Below, one piece after another: positions 1-22,288 of a DNA stretch of 32,158 bases; the stretch's first letter is position 1; the number at the start of each line of letters is the position of its first letter. Below the pieces are notes generated by a model. It ran no database searches. It was given only the letters and a program-made list of their open reading frames with translations, and had not been told where the DNA came from. Position numbers and translations under genes: made by a program. The DNA is taken from the IMG/VR virus record IMGVR_UViG_2529292726_000025, positions 1 to 32,158 of that record, one strand, 5' to 3'. The DNA is from a virus (lineage: Duplodnaviria; Heunggongvirae; Uroviricota; Caudoviricetes).

Positions 1-1236
1 CTACGATAACCGCGCATTCAACATGGCTATCTGTTCGTCGTTCATGTCATCAATCCACATACCGTAAATTTCATACCCCATCTGCGCAGTTTCATGCCCC
101 ATTTGGCTGGCTATAAATGCCGGGTTCGCTCCTGCCGTCAACAGCCAGCAGGCAAAAGTATGCCGCGTATGGTACGGATTACGGCGGCGAATACCAGCAC
201 GTTTTACTGCTGCATTCCACCTTGCCCCCAAACTGCTTACCGAGTAATAAGGTTTTTGTTTTCCGTTACACACCCTGGGCATGAAAACAAAATGCAGTTT
301 TTGCTTTTCGGTTCTGCCGTACTCCCGATGATAAAAGGTGATTTCGCTTTTGCGATGATGCCCGGTCAGTTTGTATTGCTCCTTCAGTGCTTCAAGAGCA
401 GGCTGCAGTAGTGTTACTGTTCGGATCCCGGCATTTGTTTTTGGGGGACCGAACATATCAAGTATCGTCAGGTTTCTTCTGACATTCCCTATTCCCTTTT
501 CGAGATCCACATCCTCCCACGCCAGAGCTGCCAGTTCCCCGTGACGAAGTCCTGAGTAAACGGCAAATTTCCACAAGTTCTGGCTCTGTCCTTTTTCACT
601 TTCCATTAATGCATTGAATTCTGTTTTAGATAACGGATCAGGCTTTATTCTGTTTCGCTGTAATTTTTTTACTCCTTCAAATGGTTTAGTTGATATAAAT
701 CCCGACTGATACGCAAAACGCAACAGCGAACAGAGCAGGGCGATATAGTTATCAACTGTGCGCACGGTTCTTCCTTTTTTGTTGGATCTTGGATTATCCA
801 GGTAAAGCGTTTCTCCATGCAGCAGTTCATTCCGGTAGTTTAAGATATCGCTATAACGAATATGTGATATCGGGGTACTTTCACAAATTATTATTCTGAG
901 TGTTTTTAATTGTGATTTCGTTTTCTTCATTGTGTTTGTTGTTAACTCTGTCTCTTTAATTTTTGTCCAGATATCACAAAGCTCTCCGAACGTTTTTATG
1001 ACTCTCGTTGTCACCATTTTTGCCCCAGTGCTGGACTGGGGAAAACGTCTTAAATACTCAAATTCACCGGAGTTTATTTCATGAACTATCAGCGATCTTA
1101 AATTTCCGGCCTTTTTAATATTACTGTTTGTAATCTCCCAGCCTTTTAATGTTTCCCGACATCGTTTTCCTCGAAACATGAACCAGATGCGAATGTATCT
1201 ACCTCTAATCTCGACACCTGTTGGTAATTTAGACAT
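1..1236 (-). CDS. intR: Phage integrase, tyrosine recombinase (Rac IntR-like), complete 411 aa
   Basis: Full ORF with stop at window start. C-terminal catalytic signature NPYHTRHTFACW...YEIYGMW (HxxR...Y). Followed by xis, ralR, recT, recE in Rac-prophage order. Confidence 0.88.
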   Translation of the reverse strand: MSKLPTGVEIRGRYIRIWFMFRGKRCRETLKGWEITNSNIKKAGNLRSLIVHEINSGEFEYLRRFPQSSTGAKMVTTRVIKTFGELCDIWTKIKETELTTNTMKKTKSQLKTLRIIICESTPISHIRYSDILNYRNELLHGETLYLDNPRSNKKGRTVRTVDNYIALLCSLLRFAYQSGFISTKPFEGVKKLQRNRIKPDPLSKTEFNALMESEKGQSQNLWKFAVYSGLRHGELAALAWEDVDLEKGIGNVRRNLTILDMFGPPKTNAGIRTVTLLQPALEALKEQYKLTGHHRKSEITFYHREYGRTEKQKLHFVFMPRVCNGKQKPYYSVSSLGARWNAAVKRAGIRRRNPYHTRHTFACWLLTAGANPAFIASQMGHETAQMGYEIYGMWIDDMNDEQIAMLNARLS

Positions 1237-1237
1237 A

Positions 1238-1453
1238 TCATGAGTCTTTGATAAACTGATTTATCTTTGGATAGTTGTACCAGATAATCCCTCGTTTGCT
1301 GTCTGGCTTACCTAAAGGAGATACTCGTTTGAAGTGGAAGCCCTCCACCCAACAGTTCTGGCGGTATGCTTCAATTTGTCTGGCCCCCAGACCAGTGCGA
1401 AGCATCAGGCCGTATTCAACCATCCACTCTTCATTAAAGATTACTTGTGCCAT
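1238..1453 (-). CDS. Excisionase-like small DNA-binding protein (XisR/YdaQ-like)
   Basis: 71-aa ORF ([15 protein letters not shown]...) immediately upstream of int on the same strand, the typical int-xis arrangement. Start chosen at internal ATG 1453; the track ORF extends to 1477. Confidence 0.6.
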
Positions 1454-1531
1454 CGCATCACCTCTGGCAGGCGCCAATGTTAGACTGAAATTGACGCCCG
1501 ATGTTGATTATTAATAATCAGCTATGAAGTT

Positions 1532-1753
1532 TTAATTTGAATACAATGCAATTCTCGAGGACTGAAGTTTCTCGCAATTAAAATTTATCAGTTTTACTTT
1601 CTGCTCTCTGGAAACGCCTGCTTCTTTTTTACCTGAGAGCATTTTTTCGCATTCTGATTTCGTTAGTTTAGATTTTGAATATCTTGTCCAGTTAGTAGGA
1701 GTGCCACCTTCCTTTTCAATAGTGGCGGTAATTTTATACATGAACACCTCCAT
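1532..1753 (-). CDS. Small prophage protein (YdaC-like), hypothetical
   Basis: ORF between xis and ralR in Rac-like synteny. Start ambiguous (1813, 1753 or 1741); overlaps the ralR 3' end. Confidence 0.4.
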   Translation of the reverse strand: MEVFMYKITATIEKEGGTPTNWTRYSKSKLTKSECEKMLSGKKEAGVSREQKVKLINFNCEKLQSSRIALYSN

Positions 1754-1928
1754 TATTATTTCCAGTGGTTCGTTTATTCCATCTTTCGAGTGCTTCTTTT
1801 TCACTTCCACCATAACCGGTTCGGGATTCGCATCCGTTACACTTCGCTCGGTAATATCCTGAAATGGCTTTCACCGTTACTGATGGACAACCACAAAATG
1901 GACATGGTTTAACATTGTCATATCTCAT
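1734..1928 (-). CDS. ralR: RalR/Lar-like restriction-alleviation protein and type I toxin candidate, 64 aa
   Basis: Sequence MRYDNVKPCPFCGCPSVTVKAISGYYRAKCNGCESRTGYGGSEKEALERWNKRT with a Cys4 zinc-ribbon-like pattern. Located directly downstream of recT as in Rac. Confidence 0.72.
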   Translation of the reverse strand: MRYDNVKPCPFCGCPSVTVKAISGYYRAKCNGCESRTGYGGSEKEALERWNKRTTGNNNGGVHV

Positions 1929-1984
1929 AATTTTTCTCATAAAAAATATTTCAAGTTGGCGGTGCATTACACCGCCAGGCTGAA

Positions 1985-2794
1985 TTATTCCTCTGAATTA
2001 TCGATTACACTGTATTCCCCGGTTAATACAGAGGAATCTGCAGGATCGATTGTCAGTGGTTCCTTTTCATCCATTGATACTGCACGCTGGATCTCAATTG
2101 ATACGGGCAGATATTTGAACAGGCGACGAATAGCCGTTTTCTTTGCCATTTCTTCCCAGTGAGTTACCCACGGCCCGTTATTACCAGCTTTACTCAGGCT
2201 GCGCACCAGCTCAATCTGTTTGCGCGTCATAACTTCAAACTGAGTACCTCCGTCTTTCAGTCTTGCGACAGCATAGACGTGGGTAACCGGGGCATCTTCG
2301 TTTTCTCCCGGGCGGTGTATTAACTTTTCATCAAGGCCAAATTCGAAGCTAAACTCGTCACCTTCACGGACAACACGGGCTGACAGGCTGGCGATTTGAC
2401 CAGAACGGCGAGCCAGATCAATCATGCCGCGATAGCCAATGATTAGCTGAACGTTCTTTTTACCGCTCTTTTCGTTTTTATTACCAAAAGGCAGTAAATA
2501 TGCATGACCGAGGGCGCTACCTGGCTCAAGTCCGAGCTGTGAACACTGTACGATCGCACTGACAAAACTCATAGTGTCACAGTTTCCTAACGCCGGAACT
2601 TTACGAATTTCTGTGGTGGCGATACGGATCATACGTTCAGCCGTCATATGGCGTGGAAGAGCTGCTGCCAGTTGCTCTTTCATTGATGGCTGGTTAATAA
2701 AACTAATCACGTCGCTATTTTTAACTGCTGCTGGTGCACGGTTTCCCTGAGTTTTTTGCAGATCGGCTTTTGCGATTGGTGGTTGCTTAGTCAT
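1985..2794 (-). CDS. recT: RecT single-strand annealing recombinase, 269 aa
   Basis: Begins [35 protein letters not shown] and runs full length. Start overlaps the recE stop, indicating an operon. Confidence 0.9.
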
Positions 2795-5450
2795 TTGCAT
2801 ATTCCTTAGCCCAGCGGGGCAGTGATAATGTCTTAATAGCTGGCCATTCATCGGTATTCAGGCAGTCAGACAGGGTTCGCAGATTGCGGTGATATTCCTG
2901 TTGACCTGCCAGTTTTGCTTCTTCGCCCATCATGAAAATTTCAACCGGATAACGTCCGCATTCAATAGTTGTGCTGGCAACCAGAAAAACGAAAGTTGGC
3001 TGCACTCCAAACTGTGCTTCATAACCGTCACTGTAGAATGCATCCTGAACGTGATAGCGGTAGTCGTAATAAGCGGTTTTGAATCGTTGAATATCCGCCG
3101 TAGTTTTCACGTCCATGATCCAGTGAAATTCAGGGATAATTTTGTCCGGACGGCACCGACACAAAATTCCTGTTTCAGGATCTTCCCAGTAAATTGATGA
3201 TTCAGCGTGTCCGGCGCTTTCAACAAGCCATTGCCCCAGCGGCAAAGCCATAACGCTTTGATACATGAGTTCAATTTTCCGGCCTTCTTCCGCAGTGATA
3301 ACCGTTTTTCCTGTGCTTGCGCATTCCATCAGAAACGCTTTCTCTTCTTCTTTTCCGGCGTTTGTACGGCGGTTAAATTCAGGTGCTACGATAAAGCGGT
3401 TACTGAATTCTTCCGGTTCAAGTACCCGGCAGTGGAAAGCAGTTCCTAAATCGAGCGTTTTTGTCTTTGTGGTGTCCACGGGGGCATTTTTACGCCACAA
3501 ATATAGTGCCGGAGTATCAGCAATGTCATCGAGCTGAGACTTACTGATACCGGGACCCGCGTGGTAATTCTCATTCGAAATTCCGTAATAAATACCTGGC
3601 TCTATGTCTTCTACGATTACGGGATCTGCGACTTCGCCAGTTTCATCACTGCAATCGCGATGCGGATCGCTGCCAGCATTCTCATTGTGCGGATGTTCAG
3701 CGCCTTCCATTTCCTCCGGATCATTTTCCTTAGCTTCAACCTGACTCTCTTCATCGAATGTTTCCTGGTATGTTGCGTCGCCCATCACCGCACCACAGTC
3801 AGGGCAGTTATCCCCGCCAGTCTGGCCGCAGGCATTGCAGGCTATTTCCGGTTCCTGTTGCACTACTGGCTCAGGTTGATTCATATCTGGGCTGGTTTTT
3901 TCCGTTTCTGGCTGGTTCTGGTACACACAATCGCGAGTCTGGATCCCCTTTACCCATTTCGGATCGTTCGGGTCGCTAATTCCGTCAACAAATTCACCAC
4001 GTGATGCAGCAAGCAACTTATTGGCGTCAGGCTGGCTGATATTGGCTGCCTGCATAATTTTGTTTACTTCGTCAGCGGTAACTTTTACCGGCTCTGGTTG
4101 TGCGATCGTGTCAGATGCACCAGTATTTTGTTGTGAACCTGAGTACGTGCCGTTTTTACGTGCGAAGTATTCCTCTTTTGTGATTTCCGTAGCTCCCAGG
4201 GCCAGTGCTTTTTCCAGACCAGAAAGTTTGTTTGCGCGACCGTATTTTTCGCCGTCCTTATCGGTGAAAAGGAAGTAGAACGGTCCCTCACGCTCTACAG
4301 ATGGTTCGTCTTCCACTTCGCATTCGGTTTTTTCGTTGTCCGGCATTGCCGTTTCCACTGCATCAGTTTCTGGTACTGGTGACGGGAGAGTACCAGCTGT
4401 GCCCTGATTTGTTCCTTCGTCATCTTCAAACACGCCCTTGGTAGTCAGGTATTCAGTGATGTATTTGTTCAGTGCTACGGGATCTTTGTGAATGTCGATC
4501 GGACGCTCACGGACAAGGCCAAAAATAGTCTGACGGTCGTAGCGAACGGCATCGGGTTGTTTGCGCATTGATGCGGAAATGCGCTTCCAGTCTTCGCGAT
4601 CTTTGTCGATAACTTCATTTTTTGCCCAGCGATGGATGCTGCCGTCAATGTTTCCGGTATCAATATCGCCAGGCCAGAGAGCGTAGGCCAGTTCTTCATC
4701 CAGCGTTTTCCATGTCTGCTTGTATTCGCGACAAATGGCGGCAGTGACTGGGTTGATTTTTCCTGCTGAGTTTTCAGTGTTCTGTTGATTGACTCTGGCG
4801 CTGGCGAGATCAACAACAGACGTGTATTTTCCAGTCTCTTTGCGCTCTGCGTCCTGCCGTTTTTTCCAGTTACGTAATTCAGCCTGAATTTCGGGCCATT
4901 TGGCACCCGGATTACATTTGTGTTTAACCCATCCGATAGCGAACAGTTTGCGTTCCGGATACATAGCGTTAATTTCAGGCGTTTTCATCAGTGCTTCAAC
5001 GATATGCCCGTCAAAGGTAGCAACGTCTTCCTGCAGTAATTCCTGCGCGTCAATCGCCATATCAACGGTGATGTTTTCACATGTACCGAACTTAACCAGG
5101 ACCGCGTTCTGTACTTCAAGGGACAGCTTGTCAAAATTGACGTTCATCGGATCGGATTCTGGTTCGACCGGAATAAAGGAAGCGGATTCCTCATCCCAGC
5201 GGTTTTCCTGCATATATTCAGCATCCCAGGAATCGAGGGCAGGGCGGGGTATACCGGGTTTATCCTCGCAAACAAGAAATTTATAAGCGCAGTCCTGAGC
5301 AGCCGGATAATGTTCCAGGAATTGCCAGTGAAATTTTGCGCGGGCGCGACGTTCATCACCGGCTTCAATGGCAGTGGCTACAGCGACGGCACCTTCTTCC
5401 TTTATTGCCTGTTCGTCCGGAATGGCGGCGCAAATAAAGACTTTACTCAT
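2787..5450 (-). CDS. recE: RecE exodeoxyribonuclease VIII-like 5'-3' dsDNA exonuclease, 887 aa
   Basis: Very long ORF partnered with recT. The C-terminal two thirds match my recollection of RecE (...[30 protein letters not shown]...[23 protein letters not shown]...). The N-terminal region is acidic and divergent. Confidence 0.85.
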
Positions 5451-8391: not shown

Positions 8392-8622
8392 ATGAAAAAA
8401 TCAGAAGTATTAGGCTATTTTGGCGGAGTTGTTAAAACAGCCGCAGCTCTAGGAACGTCAAAAACCACAGTCAGCATGTGGGGGGAAGAGGTTCCGTGGA
8501 AATGGGCGTTGCTAATTCAGGCAGTCACTGCCGGGGCGCTCAAATATGAGTTACACATACCGACGGTTGTCATTCCCGGTTCTGATCATAATCCGCCTTC
8601 TAACCAAGGGGGGGATTCATGA
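8392..8622 (+). CDS. Cro/YdaS-like small HTH regulator, 76 aa
   Basis: Divergent from the repressor. Start ATG 8392 with GGAG Shine-Dalgarno. HTH-like segment VVKTAAALGTSKTTVSMW. Confidence 0.6.
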   Translation: MKKSEVLGYFGGVVKTAAALGTSKTTVSMWGEEVPWKWALLIQAVTAGALKYELHIPTVVIPGSDHNPPSNQGGDS

Positions 8623-9044
8623 AAATCAAGCATGAACACATCCGCATGGCGATGAATGCCTGGGCGCATCCGGACGGCGAGAAAGTACCGGCTGCAGAGA
8701 TTACCAAAGCGTATTTCGAGCTGGGAATGACGTTCCCGGAACTGTATGACGACAGCCATCCGGAAGCCCTGGCTCGCAATACCCAGAAAATTTTCCGCTG
8801 GGTAGAGAAAGACACCCCTGATGCAGTTGAAAAAATTCAGGCGTTGTTACCAGCGATCGAAAAGGCAATGCCACCTTTGCTGGTGGCCAGAATGCGCAGC
8901 CACAGTTCTGCTTATTTTCGGGAGCTGGTGGAGACGCGGGAGCGACTGGTGAGAGACGCTGATGATTTTGTCGCAGTGGCAATCGCCGGTTTCAATCAGA
9001 TGAACCGCGGTGGCCCGGCGGGAAATGCCGTGGTGATGCACTAA
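8619..9044 (+). CDS. YdaT-like protein (proposed CII-position regulator or toxin of Rac-type prophages), 141 aa
   Basis: ORF overlapping the cro-like stop. N-terminus MKIKHEHI as I recall for Rac YdaT. Sits in the cro / ydaT / O / dnaC order. Confidence 0.55.
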   Translation: MKIKHEHIRMAMNAWAHPDGEKVPAAEITKAYFELGMTFPELYDDSHPEALARNTQKIFRWVEKDTPDAVEKIQALLPAIEKAMPPLLVARMRSHSSAYFRELVETRERLVRDADDFVAVAIAGFNQMNRGGPAGNAVVMH

Positions 9045-11681: not shown

Positions 11682-12119
11682 ATGGATGAGAAAAATATGA
11701 CGAAATTTACCAGAGAGCAATTGATTGCTCATGCTAATGAAAGTGTGAAATCCATGAAATTTGCTGCGCGACAGACCGTGTTTAAGACTTCAAGAGTTGC
11801 CATTGAAATGGATCTTGAGCTTGCCCGTATTGCGCTTGCCTCACTTGAAGCAATGCCAGTTGCATGGTCCTGTGCTCACAATATGGTTTTGTTCAATGCT
11901 GAATCTGTTGCGGCATACGCAAAACACTCAGCCATTGCGCCAAAACCCCTGTACGCTGCGCAACCGGCATCACTTTCACATGAGGAAGAGTTGACAATGC
12001 TGGTTAAACAATTGGTAAGTCAGTTGAAAAAAGCGAAACCAGATTGCAAATTACCGGATATGGCGATGGGGTATCTGGAGCGGAATGGGCTGATAAGCGC
12101 GGAGGATGTTTTACGATGA
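11682..12119 (+). CDS. Hypothetical prophage protein, 145 aa
   Basis: ORF with plausible start. No recognisable motifs. Confidence 0.4.
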   Translation: MDEKNMTKFTREQLIAHANESVKSMKFAARQTVFKTSRVAIEMDLELARIALASLEAMPVAWSCAHNMVLFNAESVAAYAKHSAIAPKPLYAAQPASLSHEEELTMLVKQLVSQLKKAKPDCKLPDMAMGYLERNGLISAEDVLR

Positions 12120-12410
12120 CCTGGCCGGAGGCATTCACAACGACAGGAATTGCAATGGCGGCAGCACTTGTTGTGTATTCGATTTGCCGCTGGGGATAAA
12201 AACGGTTTGCAGTGAAAGGGGAGTTAAGTAGAATTGCTGCGGGTGCTTGAGGCTATCTGCCTCAGGCATGAACACCAAAAGGCAGATAGAGAAAAGCCCC
12301 AGTTAACATTACGCGTCCTGCAAGACGCTTAACATTAATCTGAGGCCCAATCTATGTCTCACAAATGTAGGTTAGCCTCTTACGTGCCGAAAGGCAAGGA
12401 GAAGCAGGCT

Positions 12411-12566
12411 ATGAAGCAGCAAAAGGCGATGTTAATCGCCCTTATCGTCATCTGTTTAACCGTCATAGTGACGGCACTGGTAACGAGGAAAGACCTCTGC
12501 GAGGTACGAATCCGAACCGGCCAGACGGAGGTCGCTGTCTTCACAGCTTACGAACCTGAGGAGTAA
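12411..12566 (+). CDS. hok: Hok/Gef-family type I toxin (membrane peptide), 51 aa
   Basis: MKQQKAMLIALIVICLTVIVTALVTRKDLCEVRIRTGQTEVAVFTAYEPEE is a canonical Hok-family sequence with a single transmembrane helix. An in-frame upstream extension to 12354 exists. Confidence 0.8.
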   Translation: MKQQKAMLIALIVICLTVIVTALVTRKDLCEVRIRTGQTEVAVFTAYEPEE

Positions 12567-12604
12567 GAGACCAGGCGAGGGAGAAATCCCTCGCCACCTC
12601 TGAT

Positions 12605-13006
12605 GTGGCAGGCATCCTCAACGCACCCGCACGTAACCCGCTTCGGCGGGTTTTGTTTTTTCCTGGCATTCTGGTTTACAATTCGCACGTCAGCCTGAAC
12701 AACTGGCACCTGCTGCGCCAGCAGAGACAACCGATGGCGCACAAAACCAAATTTCACAATTCTGATACCGACCTTGCCATCCGGCATGGGCGGCGTTCAC
12801 ACGCATTTAAAACCGACTGGTACCAACACCCACCATGTACTGAAGAACAGGCCGAATGGCTAATTCATAACTACCGCAGACGCGGATACGAGATTAAGAA
12901 AGCCCTCAGCCTCGATTATCGTCACTGGATAATCTATGTCAGGCTCCCTTATTCCGAACGCCCACCGCGTCCGTCCCGCACATTCCAGCAACGCATCTGG
13001 AGGTAA
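12605..13006 (+). CDS. Hypothetical small prophage protein (Rem-position), start uncertain (GTG 12605 or ATG 12734)
   Basis: ORF between hok and the DUF968-like gene, as rem is in Qin. The ATG at 12734 gives a 90-aa product. Confidence 0.35.
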   Translation: MAGILNAPARNPLRRVLFFPGILVYNSHVSLNNWHLLRQQRQPMAHKTKFHNSDTDLAIRHGRRSHAFKTDWYQHPPCTEEQAEWLIHNYRRRGYEIKKALSLDYRHWIIYVRLPYSERPPRPSRTFQQRIWR

Positions 13007-13007
13007 C

Positions 13008-14061
13008 GTGCGGGTATTACTTCGACCTGTTCCGGTACCGGAACTTGGGCTGGTGGTGCTAAAACCGGGCCGTGAATCCATGCAGGTATTTCATAACCCT
13101 CGAGTGCTGGTGGAGCCTGAACCGAAAAGCATGCGTAATCTGCCGTCCGGGGTCGTTCCTGCCGTTCGCCAGCCGCTGGTGGAAGACAAAACATTGCTGC
13201 CGTTTTTCAGTAACGCACGGGTAATTCGTGCTGCTGGTGGTGCTGGTGCATTGTCTGACTGGCTGTTGCGCCATATTAAATCCTGCCAGTGGCCTCATGG
13301 TGATTATCATCACAGTGAAACCGTCATACATCGTTACGGTACCGGTGCGATGGTATTGTGCTGGCACTGCGACAACCAGTTGCGTGACCAGACATCCGAA
13401 TCACTCGGGCGGCTTGCTCAACAAAATCTGACAGCCTGGATGATTGACGTCATACGTCACGCAATAAGTGGTGCACTGGAACGGGAATTATCGCTGGCTG
13501 AATTATCCTGGTGGGCGCTCTGCAATCAGGTAGCGGACGCACTACCGGAGGCAGTATTACGTCGTTCTCTGGGGGTACGCGCGGAAAAAATCCACTCAGT
13601 ATACCGCGAGAGTAACATCATGCCGGGAGAACAGACAGCCACCAGCATACTGAAGCAGCGCACAAAAAATTTTGCGCCGTTGCCTCGCGCCCACCAGCAA
13701 CAGAACCCACCACAGGAAAAGACGGTGGTCAGCATTACCGTTGATCCGGAGTCACCGGAATCATTCATGAAGCGGCCTAAACGTCGCCGCTGGGTTAACG
13801 AGAAATACACGCGCTGGGTAAAGAAAGACACAGCCGTGTACGTGTTGTGGTAAGCCAGCAGACGATCCCCATCACCTGATTGGTCACGGTCAGGGAGGGA
13901 TGGGAACAAAGGCCCACGATATTTTCACGCTACCGCTGTGTCGGGAGCATCACAACGAGCTTCATGCGGATCCGCTGGCGTTCGAAGAAAAGCATGGTTC
14001 CCAGATTGATTTAATTTTTCGTTTTCTTGATCACGCCTTTGCAACTGGCGTGCTTGGGTAA
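13008..14061 (+). pseudogene. DUF968 / YdfU-like prophage protein with C-terminal HNH-like zinc motif, split by a frameshift near 13825-13853
   Basis: GTG 13008 follows a GGAGG Shine-Dalgarno. The frame ends at 13853 (..KYTRWVKKDTAVYVLW*). The conserved C-terminus (CGKPADDPHHLIGHGQGGMGTKAHDIFTLPLCREHHNELH...) continues in the +1 frame to 14061. Confidence 0.5.
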
Positions 14062-15263: not shown

Positions 15264-16018
15264 ATGGAAGAACAGCACGGTAATTACTTTATAAAACGAA
15301 TTCAGTTGATTGGAAGGGGTGCATTTGGCTTTGTTGAACACGTTAAGGTTTACAACCTCAACAAGGGTGAATGTGGGGATTATGCTAGAAAGGTGAAAAA
15401 CCAGAGCTTTTGGCGCAAATAGAGCAGTTTAGAAGGCGTTTTAAAAGGGAGGTCGTGTATCAATCACATTGCGTACATAGCAATATTGTTCCTATTTATT
15501 TGTGCGATTTGTTTGCCGAGAATCCATGGTTCATTATGGATAAAGCAGAATGTGATCTTGAGCACGAAATAACGAACAACCTTCTTACAACAGATCAAAA
15601 AATTTCAATAGTGAAAATGGTATTAGATGGTGTAGCTCACATCCATGCGAAAGGCTATTTACACAGAGATATAAAACCATTTAATGTCTTGCGATTTAGC
15701 GACGGAACATACAAGGTGTCTGATTTTGGTCTGGTAAAAGATACAAATCCCGAAGGGGATACCACTAAATTGACCGAGATCGGTACCCGTATGGGAAGTA
15801 CAAGATATATGGCTCCCGAGATTTTATATAATGCCGAGTATTCAGTTAAGACTGATGTTTATGCGGTGGGGCGGTTAATTGAGGACTTAAATTTAGATGA
15901 TAAAAAAATAAAGCCTATCATAGCGAAGTGTACCAGGATGGATAAAGATGATAGATATCAGACAATAGATGATGTGGCGTTTGATTTTGTGCATTCTTTT
16001 TTAAGGAGTGAGTCATGA
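15264..16018 (+). CDS. Hanks-type (eukaryotic-like) Ser/Thr protein kinase, interrupted by a -1 frameshift in an A5 run (15396-15400)
   Basis: Glycine loop IGRGAFGFV, beta-3 lysine YARKVK, catalytic loop HRDIKPFN, DFG (VSDFGL) and APE (YMAPEIL). The N-lobe fragment 15264-15422 and catalytic fragment 15410-16018 are in different frames. Confidence 0.8.
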
Positions 16019-16758
16019 TTCAGCTGATAGCGACTTCATCATTCTCGTATCCAAAAGAACCAGGTAGGGTCAACGAAGATTCATTGCTTCCTCCCAAAAT
16101 TGTAGGGGATGGCATCTTATTTGCCGTAGCTGATGGTGTAGGTTCATACACTGGTGCCAGTCAGGCTTCATCAATGGCAATTGCTGAACTTTCAGCATTG
16201 ACAAGCTTATCTTTTGACACAGTTCCGGATGTATTTGATGAAGTTAAGCGAAAGGTTATGTCGTTAGCTGATGTTAATGATGAGTTCGATAAAGCTGCTA
16301 CTACACTTACGTTTTGTTATGTTTGTGATAGCGGAATTATTATTGGTCATATTGGTGATTGTCGTTTGTATTGCATTGGAGAGAAGAAAGCATACCAATT
16401 GACGAAGGACGATACCAGGCATCAGATGCTAATTGATCAGAATATTTTTAAACCCAGAGATTTGAAGGATAAACCGGGCAAAAATATCTTAACGACGGCT
16501 ATAGCCTCAAATGTTGATATGGAATACGACTGTGATTTTATCACATGGAAAGATTTACCTAGTATTAACGGGGTATATCATCTGTGTATCATGTCTGATG
16601 GGGTTCATAACGTTTGGGAAAAACGCCCCAGATTTACATCAAATACGATGAGTAATAGTCAGAAGTTTTCTAATGGCATTTTGCGTCGTATAGAGAGAGC
16701 CGGACCTGATGATGACTTTTCTTTAGTAAGTATAATGGTGCGTGTGACGTCAGATTAG
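16015..16758 (+). CDS. PP2C-family (PPM) Ser/Thr protein phosphatase, 247 aa
   Basis: PPM motifs NEDS, FAVADGVGS, HIGDCRLY, MSDGV and PDDDFS. ATGA start/stop overlap with the kinase indicates translational coupling. Confidence 0.8.
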   Translation: MIQLIATSSFSYPKEPGRVNEDSLLPPKIVGDGILFAVADGVGSYTGASQASSMAIAELSALTSLSFDTVPDVFDEVKRKVMSLADVNDEFDKAATTLTFCYVCDSGIIIGHIGDCRLYCIGEKKAYQLTKDDTRHQMLIDQNIFKPRDLKDKPGKNILTTAIASNVDMEYDCDFITWKDLPSINGVYHLCIMSDGVHNVWEKRPRFTSNTMSNSQKFSNGILRRIERAGPDDDFSLVSIMVRVTSD

Positions 16759-21428: not shown

Positions 21429-22288
21429 CCGTCCAGAAGAAGACATTTTCACTGGCTGGTATGTCGCCAAAATCCAGCAATATGACGGCAAAGTCAGGCA
21501 TTAATACAGCAGATGCAAGCAAAGTTTATCATTTGCTGGTGGTCGGAACGGATGCCTTAACCATATCAGAAATCTCGGGCGATGATATTAGCATTGAGAA
21601 GGTCAGCGGCTGCGCCAGAAAATTTCTGGTCGTAGATGATGTCTTCCGCTCGTGTAGTGACTCCACAAAAACATTCGTCCACGCGCGTGACGTTAACGAA
21701 ATGAGCGCGATGTACTGTGCATCTGGTGCTTCCAATAGCGAGTTTTCGGAGTCCATAAAAAAGAGCTTGCCGTTATGCGGCAACACGGTTTATGGTTATA
21801 AGGCACCTCATAAAACGGGTGCCGGGATTGGCGTCCTGGTAAATCGAATGGCGACATATGACGCGCCGAGCGTCTTTTTTTATGTCGTAGGTCTGACTCA
21901 CCCATTTTTTGGGCGTTGGTGTATAATCCAGCGCCTTTGTCAATCAATGGTGGCTCAGGCAGGGGCTTCTTCGGAAGCGCCGGTATCCATTCGAGCCGGT
22001 TACGCCAACCCTGTCTGGGCTACCACCAGCGAAATTGGCGTTTCCGGTGGTAGCGTTACATGCTATCGAATGGAGGCTGCCACATGCTGGCTACTACCCC
22101 TACCCAAAAACCGCAATTTATCTGGATTATCGCCGCAGTTCGCCGCAGTTCGCCGCGATTGCCCGACAATTACCGCCAAAATTCATCATATTGCTGCCGA
22201 GTCTGAACGCGATGCTCGCCGTTCTCTGGTGCGCGATCACGTCTGCTTTTTTGCTGGTCGTATCCGCATGGAGGTGGCACATGATTAA
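21422..22288 (+). CDS. Hypothetical satellite-element protein, 288 aa, containing a tandem DNA repeat
   Basis: Long ORF in the operon. Contains the 10-bp tandem duplication cgccgcagtt at 22133-22160. Confidence 0.4.

What the first reader, a model, noticed from the sequence alone, without database searches (positions are those of the whole stretch)
12200..12600. Hok-family type I toxin with candidate antisense (Sok-like) control region
A canonical Hok peptide is encoded at 12411-12566. The upstream leader (12200-12410) contains an inverted repeat (ctatctgcc / ggcagatag, about 12252-12291) and short direct repeats. A perfect 8-bp hairpin (ggcgaggg / ccctcgcc, 12577-12598) follows the stop. These fit the fold-back structures of hok mRNAs, with a Sok-like antisense RNA expected on the minus strand over the leader. 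An in-frame upstream extension (from 12354) may play a mok-like coupling role.
Basis: partly seen in the sequence, partly recalled or inferred. Interest (0 to 1): 0.42.

Follow-up and report, generated by a model that had tools for sequence, protein, structure and literature searches.

The report
Intact prophage hok/mok/sok toxin-antitoxin locus
This is an ordinary, apparently intact copy of the well-known hok/sok "host-killing" toxin-antitoxin module carried by an E. coli lambdoid prophage; it has the same toxin peptide as E. coli K-12 HokD and is a close relative of the experimentally studied hokW-sokW.

Summary
Window 12206-12661 carries a complete hok/mok/sok type I toxin-antitoxin locus.

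- **Toxin:** Hok (12411-12566) matches Pfam HOK_GEF (E = 1e-23) and is identical to K-12 HokD.
- **Leader:** it matches Rfam RF01794 at 121.7 bits. That hit lies on the hok strand, so it identifies the hok mRNA leader, not Sok itself.
- **Canonical parts, all present:** a hok promoter; a 5' tac element pairing with a 3' fbi element, with compensatory changes in diverse homologs; a metastable 5' hairpin; the mok Shine-Dalgarno sequence held by an anti-SD box; mok in frame with hok; a post-stop protective hairpin; and an intrinsic terminator.
- **Sok:** it maps to 12362→12292 on the minus strand (71 nt). Its promoter fails a consensus scan, but both hexamers and the spacer are identical to the sokW promoter, whose antitoxin function was shown experimentally in Sp5.
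- **Integrity:** no IS element or frameshift disrupts the locus, unlike K-12 hokD, which keeps only the part from the hok SD onward.

It is an already known kind of element, present in thousands of E. coli genomes. The one mildly interesting point is a hypervariable Sok 5' tail and target loop among otherwise conserved prophage copies; neutral drift explains it adequately.

The parts
12206..12234 (+). hok promoter: -35 TTTGCA (12206-12211), 17-nt spacer, -10 TAGAAT (12229-12234). It places the transcription start at about G12241.
   Evidence: This is the only sigma-70-like site the scan found in 12000-12800. The -10 TAGAAT is conserved in nearly all 75 close homologs, while the spacer and -35 vary. 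The predicted start coincides with position 1 of the Rfam model.
12241..12661 (+). Full-length hok mRNA, about 420 nt, running from the tac element to the intrinsic terminator.
   Evidence: MFE -171.6 kcal/mol, z = -7.25, with the 5' end paired to the 3' end. About 94% identical to the 933W hokW transcript region.
12241..12252 (+). tac (translational activator element), GGGUGCUUGAGG. It pairs with fbi in the full-length RNA, with 12259-12269 in the nascent RNA, and with ucb after 3' processing.
   Evidence: A 12-bp tac-fbi duplex is present in 19 of 19 intact diverse loci with compensatory changes.
12243..12269 (+). Metastable 5' hairpin of the nascent transcript: tac pairs with the sequence just downstream, GCCUCAGGCA.
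   Evidence: The first 35 nt fold at -19.6 kcal/mol, z = -5.1. RNAalifold keeps this helix in the 19-sequence consensus. Inverted repeat I6.
12253..12289 (+). Body of the tac stem-loop.
   Evidence: (I1). The 65-nt fold stacks GGG.GCUU/AAGC.CCC (tac/ucb) on this hairpin.
12296..12302 (+). ucb (anti-SD box), GCCCCAG. It pairs with the mok Shine-Dalgarno region CUGAGGC (12340-12346) in the closed form.
   Evidence: Seen in the MFE structure and the RNAalifold consensus, alignment columns 57-62 with 102-107. Column pair 62/102 shows AU in 13 sequences and GC in 6.
12292..12362 (-). Sok antisense RNA gene, 71 nt: a 14-nt single-stranded 5' tail (GUGAGACAUAGAUU), a long terminator hairpin, and a UUUU 3' end.
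   Evidence: Coordinates were transferred from the sokW feature of 933W. The fold is -29.2 kcal/mol, z = -5.3. The Sp5 northern probe for sokW ends at the equivalent of 12362.
12369..12397 (-). Sok promoter: -35 TTGCCT (12397→12392), 17-nt spacer, -10 TAACCT (12374→12369), then 6 nt to the start at 12362.
   Evidence: A single match in the window against 0 expected. Identical to 933W/Sp5 across both hexamers and the spacer. The Sp5 'pro-less' primer changes exactly this -10 hexamer and abolishes antitoxin function (the mapping of the primer to the hexamer is my inference). It fails the generic consensus scan at 7 of 12 matches.
12342..12379 (+). Sok target hairpin (mok SD / dcb). GAGGC (12342-12346) pairs with GCCUC (12375-12379). 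The inner stem is 12349-12357 with 12365-12373, and the loop is CUCACAA (12358-12364). It contains the mok SD GAGG (12342-12345) and the mok AUG (12354).
   Evidence: Fold -13.3 kcal/mol, z = -2.7. All 19 alleles among close homologs keep a comparable hairpin, at about -9.6 to -15.5 kcal/mol.
12354..12566 (+). mok reading frame, 70 codons, in frame with hok and sharing its stop codon.
   Evidence: The GAGG-N8-AUG arrangement is conserved in 19 of 19 diverse loci, but the frame is not: 11 in frame, 6 in the +1 frame, 2 short ORFs.
12411..12566 (+). hok toxin gene, 51 aa. The SD GGAG lies at 12398-12401.
   Evidence: Pfam PF01848, E = 1.2e-23. PHROG 251 'MokW-like host killing', E = 2.8e-33. The peptide is identical to K-12 HokD, with one synonymous nucleotide difference.
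12409..12546 (+). Long-range helix that sequesters the hok start region: 12409-12419 pairs with 12535-12546.
   Evidence: Present in the MFE and the RNAalifold consensus with compensatory changes: column pair 174/309 UA 8, CG 7; 180/303 GC 7, AU 5; 182/300 AU 16, GC 3.
12549..12552 (+). UACG motif at the Tyr47 codon (TAC). A12550 is the candidate site for TadA A-to-I editing, which would recode Tyr to Cys.
   Evidence: TTACGAA is invariant in all 19 diverse homologs. Editing of K-12 hokD mRNA at about 6% is reported in PMC12214031. Editing of this copy was not tested.
12574..12595 (+). Post-stop hairpin, 9 bp with a GAAA loop. It is the expected 3' end and exonuclease block of the processed, translatable hok mRNA.
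   Evidence: (I8). A compensatory A-U to G-C change relative to 933W and other homologs is seen. The role is inferred from R1 (PMC9841398).
12616..12628 (+). fbi (fold-back inhibitory element), CCUCAACGCACCC. It pairs with tac, leaving one bulged C.
   Evidence: (I5). The duplex energy is -21.5 kcal/mol, and it begins 49 nt after the stop codon.
12635..12661 (+). Intrinsic terminator of the hok mRNA: AACCCGC-UUCG-GCGGGUU followed by UUGUUUUUU.
   Evidence: Found by the terminator scan. Conserved in most close homologs and in K-12 hokD.

Best explanation
Window 12206-12661 is a complete, undisrupted hok/mok/sok type I toxin-antitoxin locus of the prophage hokD/hokW subgroup. It sits between the replication genes and the nin/Q region of a lambdoid prophage.

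**Shown here:** the anatomy below, and its conservation across homologs.

**Inferred from plasmid R1 and Sp5:** the dynamics, toxicity control and biological role. The likely mechanism is as follows.

1. A weak promoter (12206-12234) makes a hok mRNA of about 420 nt.
2. While the RNA is being made, its 5' tac element is held in a local metastable hairpin.
3. In the finished RNA, tac (12241-12252) pairs with fbi (12616-12628). The mok Shine-Dalgarno sequence is held by the anti-SD box ucb, and the hok start region is paired with 12535-12546. This form is stable and untranslatable, and Sok cannot bind it.
4. Slow 3' trimming back to the hairpin at 12574-12595 removes fbi.
5. tac then pairs with ucb. 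This exposes the mok SD and AUG in a hairpin whose loop is the entry site for Sok.
6. Sok is a labile 71-nt RNA (12362→12292, minus strand) made from its own promoter. It binds through its single-stranded 5' tail, and RNase III cleaves the duplex.
7. When Sok supply stops, ribosomes translate mok. Because mok is in frame, they run into hok, open its start site, and the 51-aa Hok peptide depolarises the inner membrane.
For: - **Toxin identity:** Pfam HOK_GEF at E = 1.2e-23 and PHROG 'MokW-like host killing' at 2.8e-33. The peptide is identical to K-12 HokD.
- **Leader:** Rfam RF01794 at 121.7 bits, full length.
- **Promoter and terminator:** both sit at the expected ends of the transcript.
- **Closed form:** the MFE of the full transcript closes the 5' end on the 3' end, z = -7.25.
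- **tac-fbi pairing:** a 12-bp duplex lies 45-56 nt after the stop codon in 19 of 19 intact loci from Escherichia, Kluyvera, Citrobacter, Photorhabdus, Erwinia and Pantoea. Compensatory changes include U-A to C-G at position 4 and G-C to A-U at positions 11 and 12.
- **Whole-transcript covariation:** RNAalifold finds 21 pairs with double-sided changes, including the ucb/SD helix and the helix around the hok start.
- **Alternative 5' folds:** the metastable and tac-stem folds are each significant.
- **Sok:** it folds as a 5' tail plus hairpin plus U-tail, z = -5.3. Both hexamers and the spacer of its promoter are identical to the Sp5/933W sokW promoter.
- **Experiments on the close relative:** in Sp5, HokW is toxic, sokW made from its own promoter neutralises it, mutating the promoter removes protection, and RNase III and Hfq contribute (PMC8621323).
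- **Integrity:** the alignments show no insertion, frameshift or premature stop. By contrast, K-12 hokC has lost fbi after an insertion, and K-12 hokD has lost everything upstream of 12398.
- **Canonical mechanism:** taken from PMC9841398.
Against: - No expression data exist for this copy.
- The Sok promoter matches only 7 of 12 consensus positions, and the generic scan did not call it.
- The predicted MFE of the 3'-trimmed RNA (12241-12600) stays in the closed SD/ucb form and does not switch to the open form. Thermodynamic prediction therefore does not reproduce the activation step.
- The Sp5 locus lies elsewhere in its prophage and in the opposite orientation to neighbouring transcription. 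Its demonstrated role therefore cannot simply be transferred.
- Hok here has Tyr47 where other Hoks have Cys. Full toxicity may depend on low-level RNA editing.
- NCBIfam Hok models score below their curated cut-offs: 48.5 bits against 73.
Confidence: 0.85

Rival explanations
1. The locus is structurally intact but physiologically silent. Like the intact chromosomal hokA and hokC loci of wild E. coli strains, it is transcribed and fully repressed, and it never produces enough Hok to matter. On this view it is a passively inherited passenger in the prophage.
For: [quoted passage not shown] The hok -35 is weak and variable. Tyr47 stands in place of Cys, and only about 6% editing is reported for hokD mRNA. 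The near-identical prophage in strain 510016 carries pseudogenes (cro and DUF968 frameshifted) and an inserted element, so the prophage may be decaying.
Against: The hok coding sequence is under strong constraint across prophage copies: pi = 0.012, and 0.020 at third codon positions. Every regulatory helix is kept, some with compensatory changes. The relative that is about 94% identical, hokW-sokW, is active in its native prophage: HokW protein appears after induction, and deleting the locus halves phage release. The exact peptide, K-12 HokD, is listed among the Hok coding sequences that cause lysis when overexpressed.
Confidence: 0.2
2. The machinery is the same, but its biological role is tied to prophage induction, as for hokW-sokW. 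After SOS induction, Sok disappears and Hok accumulates in the inner membrane. This advances growth arrest and lysis and raises phage release. Here hok points the same way as early-right transcription (replication genes to Q). Read-through transcription could therefore also interfere with the convergent Sok promoter.
For: Sp5 data: sokW RNA vanishes after mitomycin C, HokW is made in a RecA-dependent way about 1 h before the endolysin, and deleting the locus delays arrest by about 40 min and halves released phage. The window locus lies on the + strand between the + strand replication genes and rusA/Q. At least 56 of 80 IMG/VR copies share this downstream context.
Against: In 933W and Sp5 the locus is at the far right end of the prophage, in the opposite orientation to the late genes, so the regulatory context differs. 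Transcriptional interference is pure inference. The prophage here may be defective, in which case helping phage release would be irrelevant.
Confidence: 0.35
3. The machinery is the same, but its main role is addiction or defence. It would kill cells that lose or delete this prophage segment (killing like post-segregational killing). Alternatively it would abort infection when a virulent phage shuts off host transcription, as R1 hok/sok excludes T4.
For: The canonical hok/sok role is post-segregational killing, and hok/sok on a high-copy plasmid protects against T4. hok genes are about four times enriched in prophages. The window also carries a second type I toxin-antitoxin system, ralR/ralA, and a kinase/phosphatase pair downstream of Q. 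Morons of this kind are often linked to exclusion.
Against: hok is not enriched near defence systems (section heading; discussion text). Chromosomal hok loci failed post-segregational killing tests. T4 exclusion needed a high-copy plasmid. None of this could be tested here.
Confidence: 0.25
4. It is only a hok gene remnant with no working antitoxin RNA, like K-12 hokD/relF.
For: PGAP annotates only a hokD CDS here. The generic scan called no antisense promoter.
Against: K-12 hokD shares sequence only from 12398 rightward. The window keeps the whole 157-position leader, the mok SD and AUG, and a Sok gene and promoter with hexamers and spacer identical to the validated sokW promoter.
Confidence: 0.03

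Closest known systems
hokW-mokW-sokW of Stx2 phages 933W and Sp5 (E. coli O157:H7)
   Same: About 94% nucleotide identity over the aligned locus (92.5% in the database search). The order and length of parts are the same: promoter, tac, the 71-nt Sok with its extended hairpin, in-frame 70-codon mok, 51-aa Hok, post-stop hairpin and fbi. The Sok promoter hexamers and spacer are identical.
   Different: - Four Hok residues differ at the C-terminus (…FTAYEPEE here, …FVDYESEK in HokW).
- Six of the first 16 Sok nucleotides differ, so the recognition tail is a different allele.
- 933W lacks the terminator that immediately follows fbi here.
- The position in the prophage differs: the right end beside tail-fibre genes and in the opposite orientation in 933W, against between replication and nin/Q genes here.
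hokD (relF) of the Qin cryptic prophage, E. coli K-12
   Same: The Hok peptide is identical. The 3' UTR, fbi and terminator are nearly identical. The downstream neighbours match: K-12 has rem, ydfU (DUF968) and a Q-like gene; the window has a 90-aa ORF in rem's position (its homology to rem was not tested), then DUF968, rusA and Q.
   Different: In K-12, homology starts only at the hok SD (window 12398). The hok promoter, tac, ucb, mok, Sok and the Sok promoter are all replaced by relBE. The window copy is the intact form of that locus.
hok/sok (parB) of plasmid R1, the paradigm
   Same: The logic and the named elements are the same: tac/fbi, ucb/dcb, mok coupling, the metastable hairpin, 3' processing, a Sok RNA with a 5' tail, and RNase III (PMC9841398). 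All have sequence counterparts here.
   Different: Plasmid Hok-family peptides are only about 42% identical; HokW against R1 Hok is 44%. The Sok hairpin is about 16-20 nt longer than the Rfam consensus. mok is in frame with hok here; in R1 it is out of frame (my own recollection, not checked here). The locus is in a prophage, not on a plasmid.
hokC (gef)/mokC/sokC of the E. coli chromosome
   Same: Hok is 82% identical, mok is in frame, and the leader family is the same, RF01794 at 118 bits.
   Different: The Sok hairpin is short. In K-12-type strains an insertion just after the post-stop hairpin removes fbi (identifying it as IS186 is my recollection). The window locus has no such disruption.

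Membership tests
hok/sok (Hok/Gef) type I toxin-antitoxin family | A hydrophobic Hok peptide of about 50 aa that matches the Hok/Gef profile | tested here: met
   PF01848, 82.9 bits against a cut-off of 22, E = 1.2e-23. PHROG 251, E = 2.8e-33. NCBIfam Hok subfamily model scores below its cut-off, 48.5 against 73.
hok/sok (Hok/Gef) type I toxin-antitoxin family | A conserved structured hok mRNA leader (Rfam RF01794) ending at the hok AUG | tested here: met
   121.7 bits against a gathering score of 59, model positions 1-157, + strand, 12241-12416. The strand and end point were the same in 22 hits in 20 other loci.
hok/sok (Hok/Gef) type I toxin-antitoxin family | Long-range tac/fbi pairing between the 5' and 3' ends of the full-length mRNA | tested here: met
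   The MFE pairs 12241-12252 with 12616-12628. A 12-bp duplex is present in 19 of 19 intact loci with compensatory changes.
hok/sok (Hok/Gef) type I toxin-antitoxin family | An upstream overlapping mok reading frame with its own SD, which an anti-SD box (ucb) sequesters | tested here: met
   GAGG at 12342-12345, AUG at 12354, 70-codon ORF. The SD and AUG are conserved in 19 of 19 loci. The ucb/SD helix appears in the MFE and the alifold consensus with covariation.
hok/sok (Hok/Gef) type I toxin-antitoxin family | A cis-encoded Sok antisense RNA: a 5' single-stranded tail, a terminator hairpin and a U-tail, complementary to the mok translation-initiation region | tested here: met
   12362→12292 folds as a 14-nt tail, a hairpin and UUUU, z = -5.3. 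Coordinates come from the 933W sokW annotation.
hok/sok (Hok/Gef) type I toxin-antitoxin family | A functional Sok promoter on the opposite strand | tested here: inconclusive
   TTGCCT-17-TAACCT at 12397→12369 is unique in the window and identical to the Sp5 promoter, whose mutation abolishes antitoxin function. It matches only 7 of 12 consensus positions and the scan missed it. There are no expression data for this copy.
hok/sok (Hok/Gef) type I toxin-antitoxin family | A stable hairpin after the stop codon that defines the 3' end of the processed, active mRNA | tested here: met
   A 9-bp hairpin at 12574-12595, -19.7 kcal/mol, z = -5.6, with compensatory changes in homologs. The processing itself was not tested.
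hok/sok (Hok/Gef) type I toxin-antitoxin family | Hok is toxic and Sok neutralises it in vivo | not testable with these tools
   Indirect only. The peptide is identical to K-12 HokD, which is reported as lytic when overexpressed. The hokW-sokW relative was validated experimentally.
hokW-sokW subgroup (Sp5/933W) | The same Sok recognition tail, so the antitoxins could substitute for each other | tested here: not met
   Six of the first 16 Sok nucleotides differ. The predicted tail-target duplex is -27.7 kcal/mol for the cognate pair and -9.9 kcal/mol with the 933W-type target.
hokW-sokW subgroup (Sp5/933W) | The same position and orientation in the prophage | tested here: not met
   In 933W the locus lies at 58.4-58.7 kb, next to L0134-L0136 and on the opposite strand to the late genes. 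In the window it lies between DUF4406/hypothetical genes and DUF968/rusA/Q, on the same strand as them.
K-12 hokD/relF type (regulatory region lost) | The leader, mok and sok are absent | tested here: not met
   The window has all of them. K-12 homology begins at 12398.

The most novel reading that the evidence does not exclude
Among prophage copies whose hok coding sequence is almost invariant (pi = 0.012), the Sok 5' tail and its target loop (12347-12368) exist as at least 10 distinct alleles (loop pi = 0.39), and the target hairpin is kept in all of them. The most novel reading is that this is selected diversification. Each prophage's Sok would then recognise only its own hok mRNA: predicted tail-target duplex averages -26 kcal/mol for cognate pairs and -11 kcal/mol for non-cognate pairs. 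Co-resident or superinfecting lambdoid phages could then not disarm each other's toxin. That would make a set of orthogonal addiction or exclusion 'specificities', comparable to immunity groups.
Probability: 0.25. Interest if true: 0.4.

Novelty: already known. Interest (0 to 1): 0.12.

Why it matters
It matters little beyond correct annotation. Reference annotation marks only a 'hokD' CDS here. In fact the locus is a complete hok/mok/sok module with a Sok gene, unlike the truncated K-12 hokD that lends it its name. It could serve as a natural 'intact hokD' for studying what prophage-borne hok/sok does (lysis timing, prophage retention or phage exclusion). It could also help test whether the allelic Sok tails are specific to their own targets.

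Tried and rejected
1. **Promoter scan for Sok.** The generic sigma-70 scan of 12000-12800 found no minus-strand site. I located the promoter through homology with the validated sokW promoter instead.
2. **Folding the 3'-trimmed mRNA (12241-12600).** I hoped to see the switch to the open tac/ucb form. The MFE stayed closed, with the metastable hairpin, so this neither supports nor refutes the activation step.
3. **YUNR U-turn motif in the target loop.** It is present in the window allele (CUCA) but in only about 11 of 19 alleles, so it is not usable as a defining feature.
4. **Do copies within one genome avoid sharing a Sok-tail allele?** Seven of 8 same-genome pairs differ, but random draws would give about 90% different. 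No signal beyond chance.
5. **Is the hypervariable patch more variable than unconstrained sequence?** No. The loop has pi = 0.39 and the hok promoter spacer has pi = 0.415, so neutral drift at an unconstrained loop is a sufficient explanation.
6. **NCBIfam Hok models.** They score below their curated cut-offs. The PGAP 'HokD' name probably comes from matching the identical reference protein rather than from these models (my inference, not checked).
7. **An early assumption that was wrong.** I first assumed the whole window was collinear with strain 510016. Only 3623 onward is (99.7%). The left 3.6 kb is Rac-like.
8. **A weak Rfam hit.** The hok 3' UTR gives a sub-threshold isrK hit, 27.9 bits against 50. 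I judged it a generic match of two hairpins plus a terminator.
Full report
**1. What is there**

The region contains a 51-codon ORF at 12411-12566 on the + strand. Its product is MKQQKAMLIALIVICLTVIVTALVTRKDLCEVRIRTGQTEVAVFTAYEPEE.

- It matches Pfam HOK_GEF at E = 1.2e-23 and PHROG 251 'MokW-like host killing' at 2.8e-33.
- An in-frame ATG at 12354 extends it to 70 codons.
- The post-stop hairpin is real. It is 9 perfect pairs at 12574-12582 / 12587-12595, about 3 nt left of the stated coordinates.
- The short direct repeats (D1-D7) are either the two sides of the Sok hairpin (TTAACATTA twice) or chance-level pairs.

**2. Identity by comparison**

- A 551-nt query around the locus finds matches in 4743 of 5426 complete E. 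coli genomes, with a median of 2 places per genome and up to 11. The gene is annotated hokD throughout, and one genome (strain 510016) matches at 100%.
- In the phage collection, 83 records match. Among them is 933W, where the authors annotated mokW, hokW and an antisense sokW.
- A pairwise alignment with 933W is about 94% identical from upstream of the promoter to just past the fbi element. It lets the 933W features be transferred: sokW corresponds to window 12362→12292 on the minus strand.
- The Sp5 (Sakai prophage 5) copy of hokW-sokW has been tested. HokW is toxic. sokW expressed from its own promoter neutralises it. Mutating the promoter removes protection. RNase III and Hfq contribute. 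After mitomycin C, sokW RNA disappears and HokW accumulates in the inner membrane. Deleting the locus halves phage release (PMC8621323).

**3. The Rfam hit needs care**

RF01794 'sok' hits 12241-12416 at 121.7 bits, but on the + strand, ending at the hok AUG. In 20 other hok loci from six genera, all 22 hits were likewise on the hok strand and ended at the hok AUG. The model therefore describes the hok mRNA leader, which contains the complement of Sok. It is strong evidence for a hok-type leader and only indirect evidence for Sok.

**4. Anatomy on the + strand**

- **Promoter:** the only sigma-70-like site in 12000-12800 is TTTGCA-17-TAGAAT at 12206-12234. It places the start at about 12241, which is position 1 of the Rfam model.
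- **Terminator:** an intrinsic terminator lies at 12635-12652 followed by a T-run.
- **Closed form:** the 422-nt RNA folds at -171.6 kcal/mol (z = -7.25). Its first 12 nt (GGGUGCUUGAGG) pair with 12616-12628 (CCUCAACGCACCC), which is the tac/fbi closure of the hok paradigm (element names from PMC9841398).
- **Nascent form:** the first 35 nt alone form a -19.6 kcal/mol hairpin in which tac pairs with 12259-12269. This is the metastable structure.
- **Sok target:** 12336-12385 form the SD/dcb hairpin carrying the mok SD (GAGG, 12342-12345), the mok AUG and a 7-nt loop, CUCACAA (all).
- **Closed-form sequestration:** the mok SD pairs with GCCCCAG (12296-12302), and the hok start region (12409-12419) pairs with 12535-12546.

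**5. Conservation and covariation**

I collected 53 loci from one-per-species genomes and 80 from IMG/VR.

- In a 19-sequence alignment spanning Escherichia, Shigella, Kluyvera, Citrobacter, Pseudocitrobacter, Photorhabdus, Erwinia and Pantoea, RNAalifold predicts 75 pairs. Of these, 21 have double-sided changes.
- A direct search finds a 12-bp tac-fbi duplex (-17 to -26 kcal/mol) 45-56 nt after the stop codon in all 19 intact loci. Compensatory changes include GGGUGC/GCACCC to GGGCGC/GCGCCC, GAGG/CCUC to GAGA/UCUC, and GAAG/CUUC.
- The K-12-type hokC copy serves as a negative control. An insertion after its post-stop hairpin removes fbi.

**6. The minus strand**

- The 71-nt RNA from 12362 to 12292 folds as a 14-nt free 5' tail, a long hairpin and UUUU, at -29.2 kcal/mol, z = -5.3.
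- This subgroup's hairpin is 16-20 nt longer than the Rfam consensus.
- The promoter is TTGCCT-17-TAACCT (12397→12369), then 6 nt to the start. It occurs once in the window against 0 expected.
- It matches only 7 of 12 consensus positions and the generic scan missed it.
- Both hexamers and the spacer are identical to 933W/Sp5. The Sp5 'promoter-less' primer alters exactly this -10 hexamer. That mapping is my reading of the primer YO-421 sequence.

**7. Integrity**

There is no insertion, frameshift or stop codon relative to 933W or to most of the 75 unique close homologs. K-12 hokD, whose peptide is identical, shares sequence only from 12398 (the hok SD) rightward. Its promoter, tac, ucb, mok and sok have been replaced by relBE. 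The window therefore holds the intact form of the locus that K-12 has in truncated form.

**8. mok**

The SD-N8-AUG arrangement is conserved in 19 of 19 loci, but the reading frame is not: 11 are in frame with hok, 6 are in the +1 frame and 2 are short ORFs. This fits the established view that the act of translating mok matters, not the Mok peptide.

**9. Context**

- From 3623 onward the window is 99.7% identical to a lambdoid prophage of strain 510016.
- The locus lies on the same strand as, and between, the replication genes plus DUF977 and DUF4406, and a 90-aa ORF in the position of K-12 rem, followed by DUF968, rusA and Q.
- At least 56 of 80 IMG/VR copies share that downstream context. 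K-12 Qin has the matching gene order (rem, ydfU/DUF968 and a Q-like gene).
- In 933W the locus sits at the right end of the prophage, in the opposite orientation to the late genes. The induction-linked role shown for Sp5 may therefore not transfer directly.

**10. Mechanism and its status**

- **Shown here:** the parts, their positions, their alternative pairings and their conservation.
- **Inferred from R1 and Sp5:** slow 3' trimming, the refolding, Sok binding through its tail, RNase III cleavage, coupled mok-hok translation and membrane depolarisation.
- **Not reproduced:** the MFE of the trimmed RNA does not switch to the open form.
- **Open:** the biological role. Candidates are helping lysis, addiction, abortive infection, or none. 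Intact chromosomal hok loci failed post-segregational killing tests.

**11. Side observation**

- Among 72 close copies, diversity is 0.012 in hok, 0.045-0.09 in most of the leader and 3' UTR, and 0.32 in 12347-12368 (0.39 in the loop). There are 19 alleles of 12340-12381, and all keep the hairpin.
- Predicted duplexes between the Sok tail and its target average -26 kcal/mol for cognate pairs and -11 kcal/mol for non-cognate pairs.
- However, the unconstrained hok promoter spacer is equally diverse (0.415). Alleles within one genome differ no more often than chance predicts.
- Selection for orthogonality is therefore possible but not required.

**12. Verdict**

This is a correct call of a well-known element. 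It is already known as a kind and as a sequence, and it is of low interest.

Noticed in passing
window 12347-12368: This patch covers mok codons 2-4, the Sok 5' tail and the target-hairpin loop. It is hypervariable among prophage copies (pi 0.32-0.39, at least 10 alleles), while the hok coding sequence is nearly invariant (pi 0.012). The hairpin is kept in every allele, and cognate tail-target duplexes are predicted to be much stronger than non-cognate ones. The hok promoter spacer is equally diverse, so neutral drift suffices as an explanation.
   Followed up: partly
window 1532-1967: A second type I toxin-antitoxin system lies in the window. Rfam RalA hits 1557-1735 (+) at 225 bits. A RalR ORF (MRYDNVKPCPFCG…) lies at 1734-1967 (-), and an ORF in the position of rcbA lies at 1532-1813 (-). 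The arrangement is the same as in the K-12 Rac prophage.
   Followed up: partly
window 1-3622 versus 3623 onward: The prophage is mosaic. From 3623 onward it is 99.7% identical to the prophage next to ompW in strain 510016. The left 3.6 kb is Rac-like instead of that prophage's int/xis arm.
   Followed up: partly
window 12549-12552 (also 12505-12508): A UACG motif sits at the Tyr47 codon in the context UUACGAA, which resembles the tRNA-Arg anticodon loop (my recollection). It is invariant in 19 diverse hok genes. TadA editing there would recode Tyr47 to Cys; editing of K-12 hokD mRNA at about 6% is reported (PMC12214031). A second UACGA lies at Val32/Arg33, where editing would be synonymous.
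   Followed up: partly
window 21803-22030: Rfam isrK (67 bits) and C4 antisense RNA (79.5 bits) lie side by side. By the annotation of strain 510016, they fall in a second integrative element: its own integrase, an antA/antB antirepressor, an Icd-like gene and a TOPRIM/DUF927 primase. That element is inserted into the prophage after a truncated DNA methyltransferase gene. The arrangement resembles a P1/P7-type c4-icd-ant immunity module (resemblance is from my own knowledge).
   Followed up: no
window about 15455-16758: A protein kinase gene and a PP2C phosphatase gene lie directly downstream of the Q antiterminator gene, according to the annotation of the near-identical genome. This is another moron-type pair that might act in exclusion or lysogeny control.
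   Followed up: no
window 12116-12199: An unannotated 27-codon ORF (MTWPEAFTTTGIAMAAALVVYSICRWG) encodes a hydrophobic peptide and ends just upstream of the hok promoter. It has no family match. The segment is present upstream of hok in about 21 of 80 IMG/VR copies.
   Followed up: partly
window 12575-12656: The hok 3' UTR (post-stop hairpin, fbi, terminator) gives a sub-threshold Rfam hit to isrK: 27.9 bits against a gathering score of 50, E = 5e-4. This is probably a generic match of two hairpins plus a terminator.
   Followed up: no
window 12936-14061 and about 8392-8635: In the near-identical genome, PGAP marks the DUF968 gene and the cro-like gene as frameshifted. In the window, the DUF968 ORF stops at 13853. 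The prophage may be decaying.
   Followed up: no
L015 (E. coli CP178308, hokC locus), alignment A2 columns 363-425: In the K-12-type hokC copy, sequence diverges right after the post-stop hairpin and there is no fbi. This fits the reported insertion-element inactivation of hokC and served as a useful negative control for 'intact'.
   Followed up: partly
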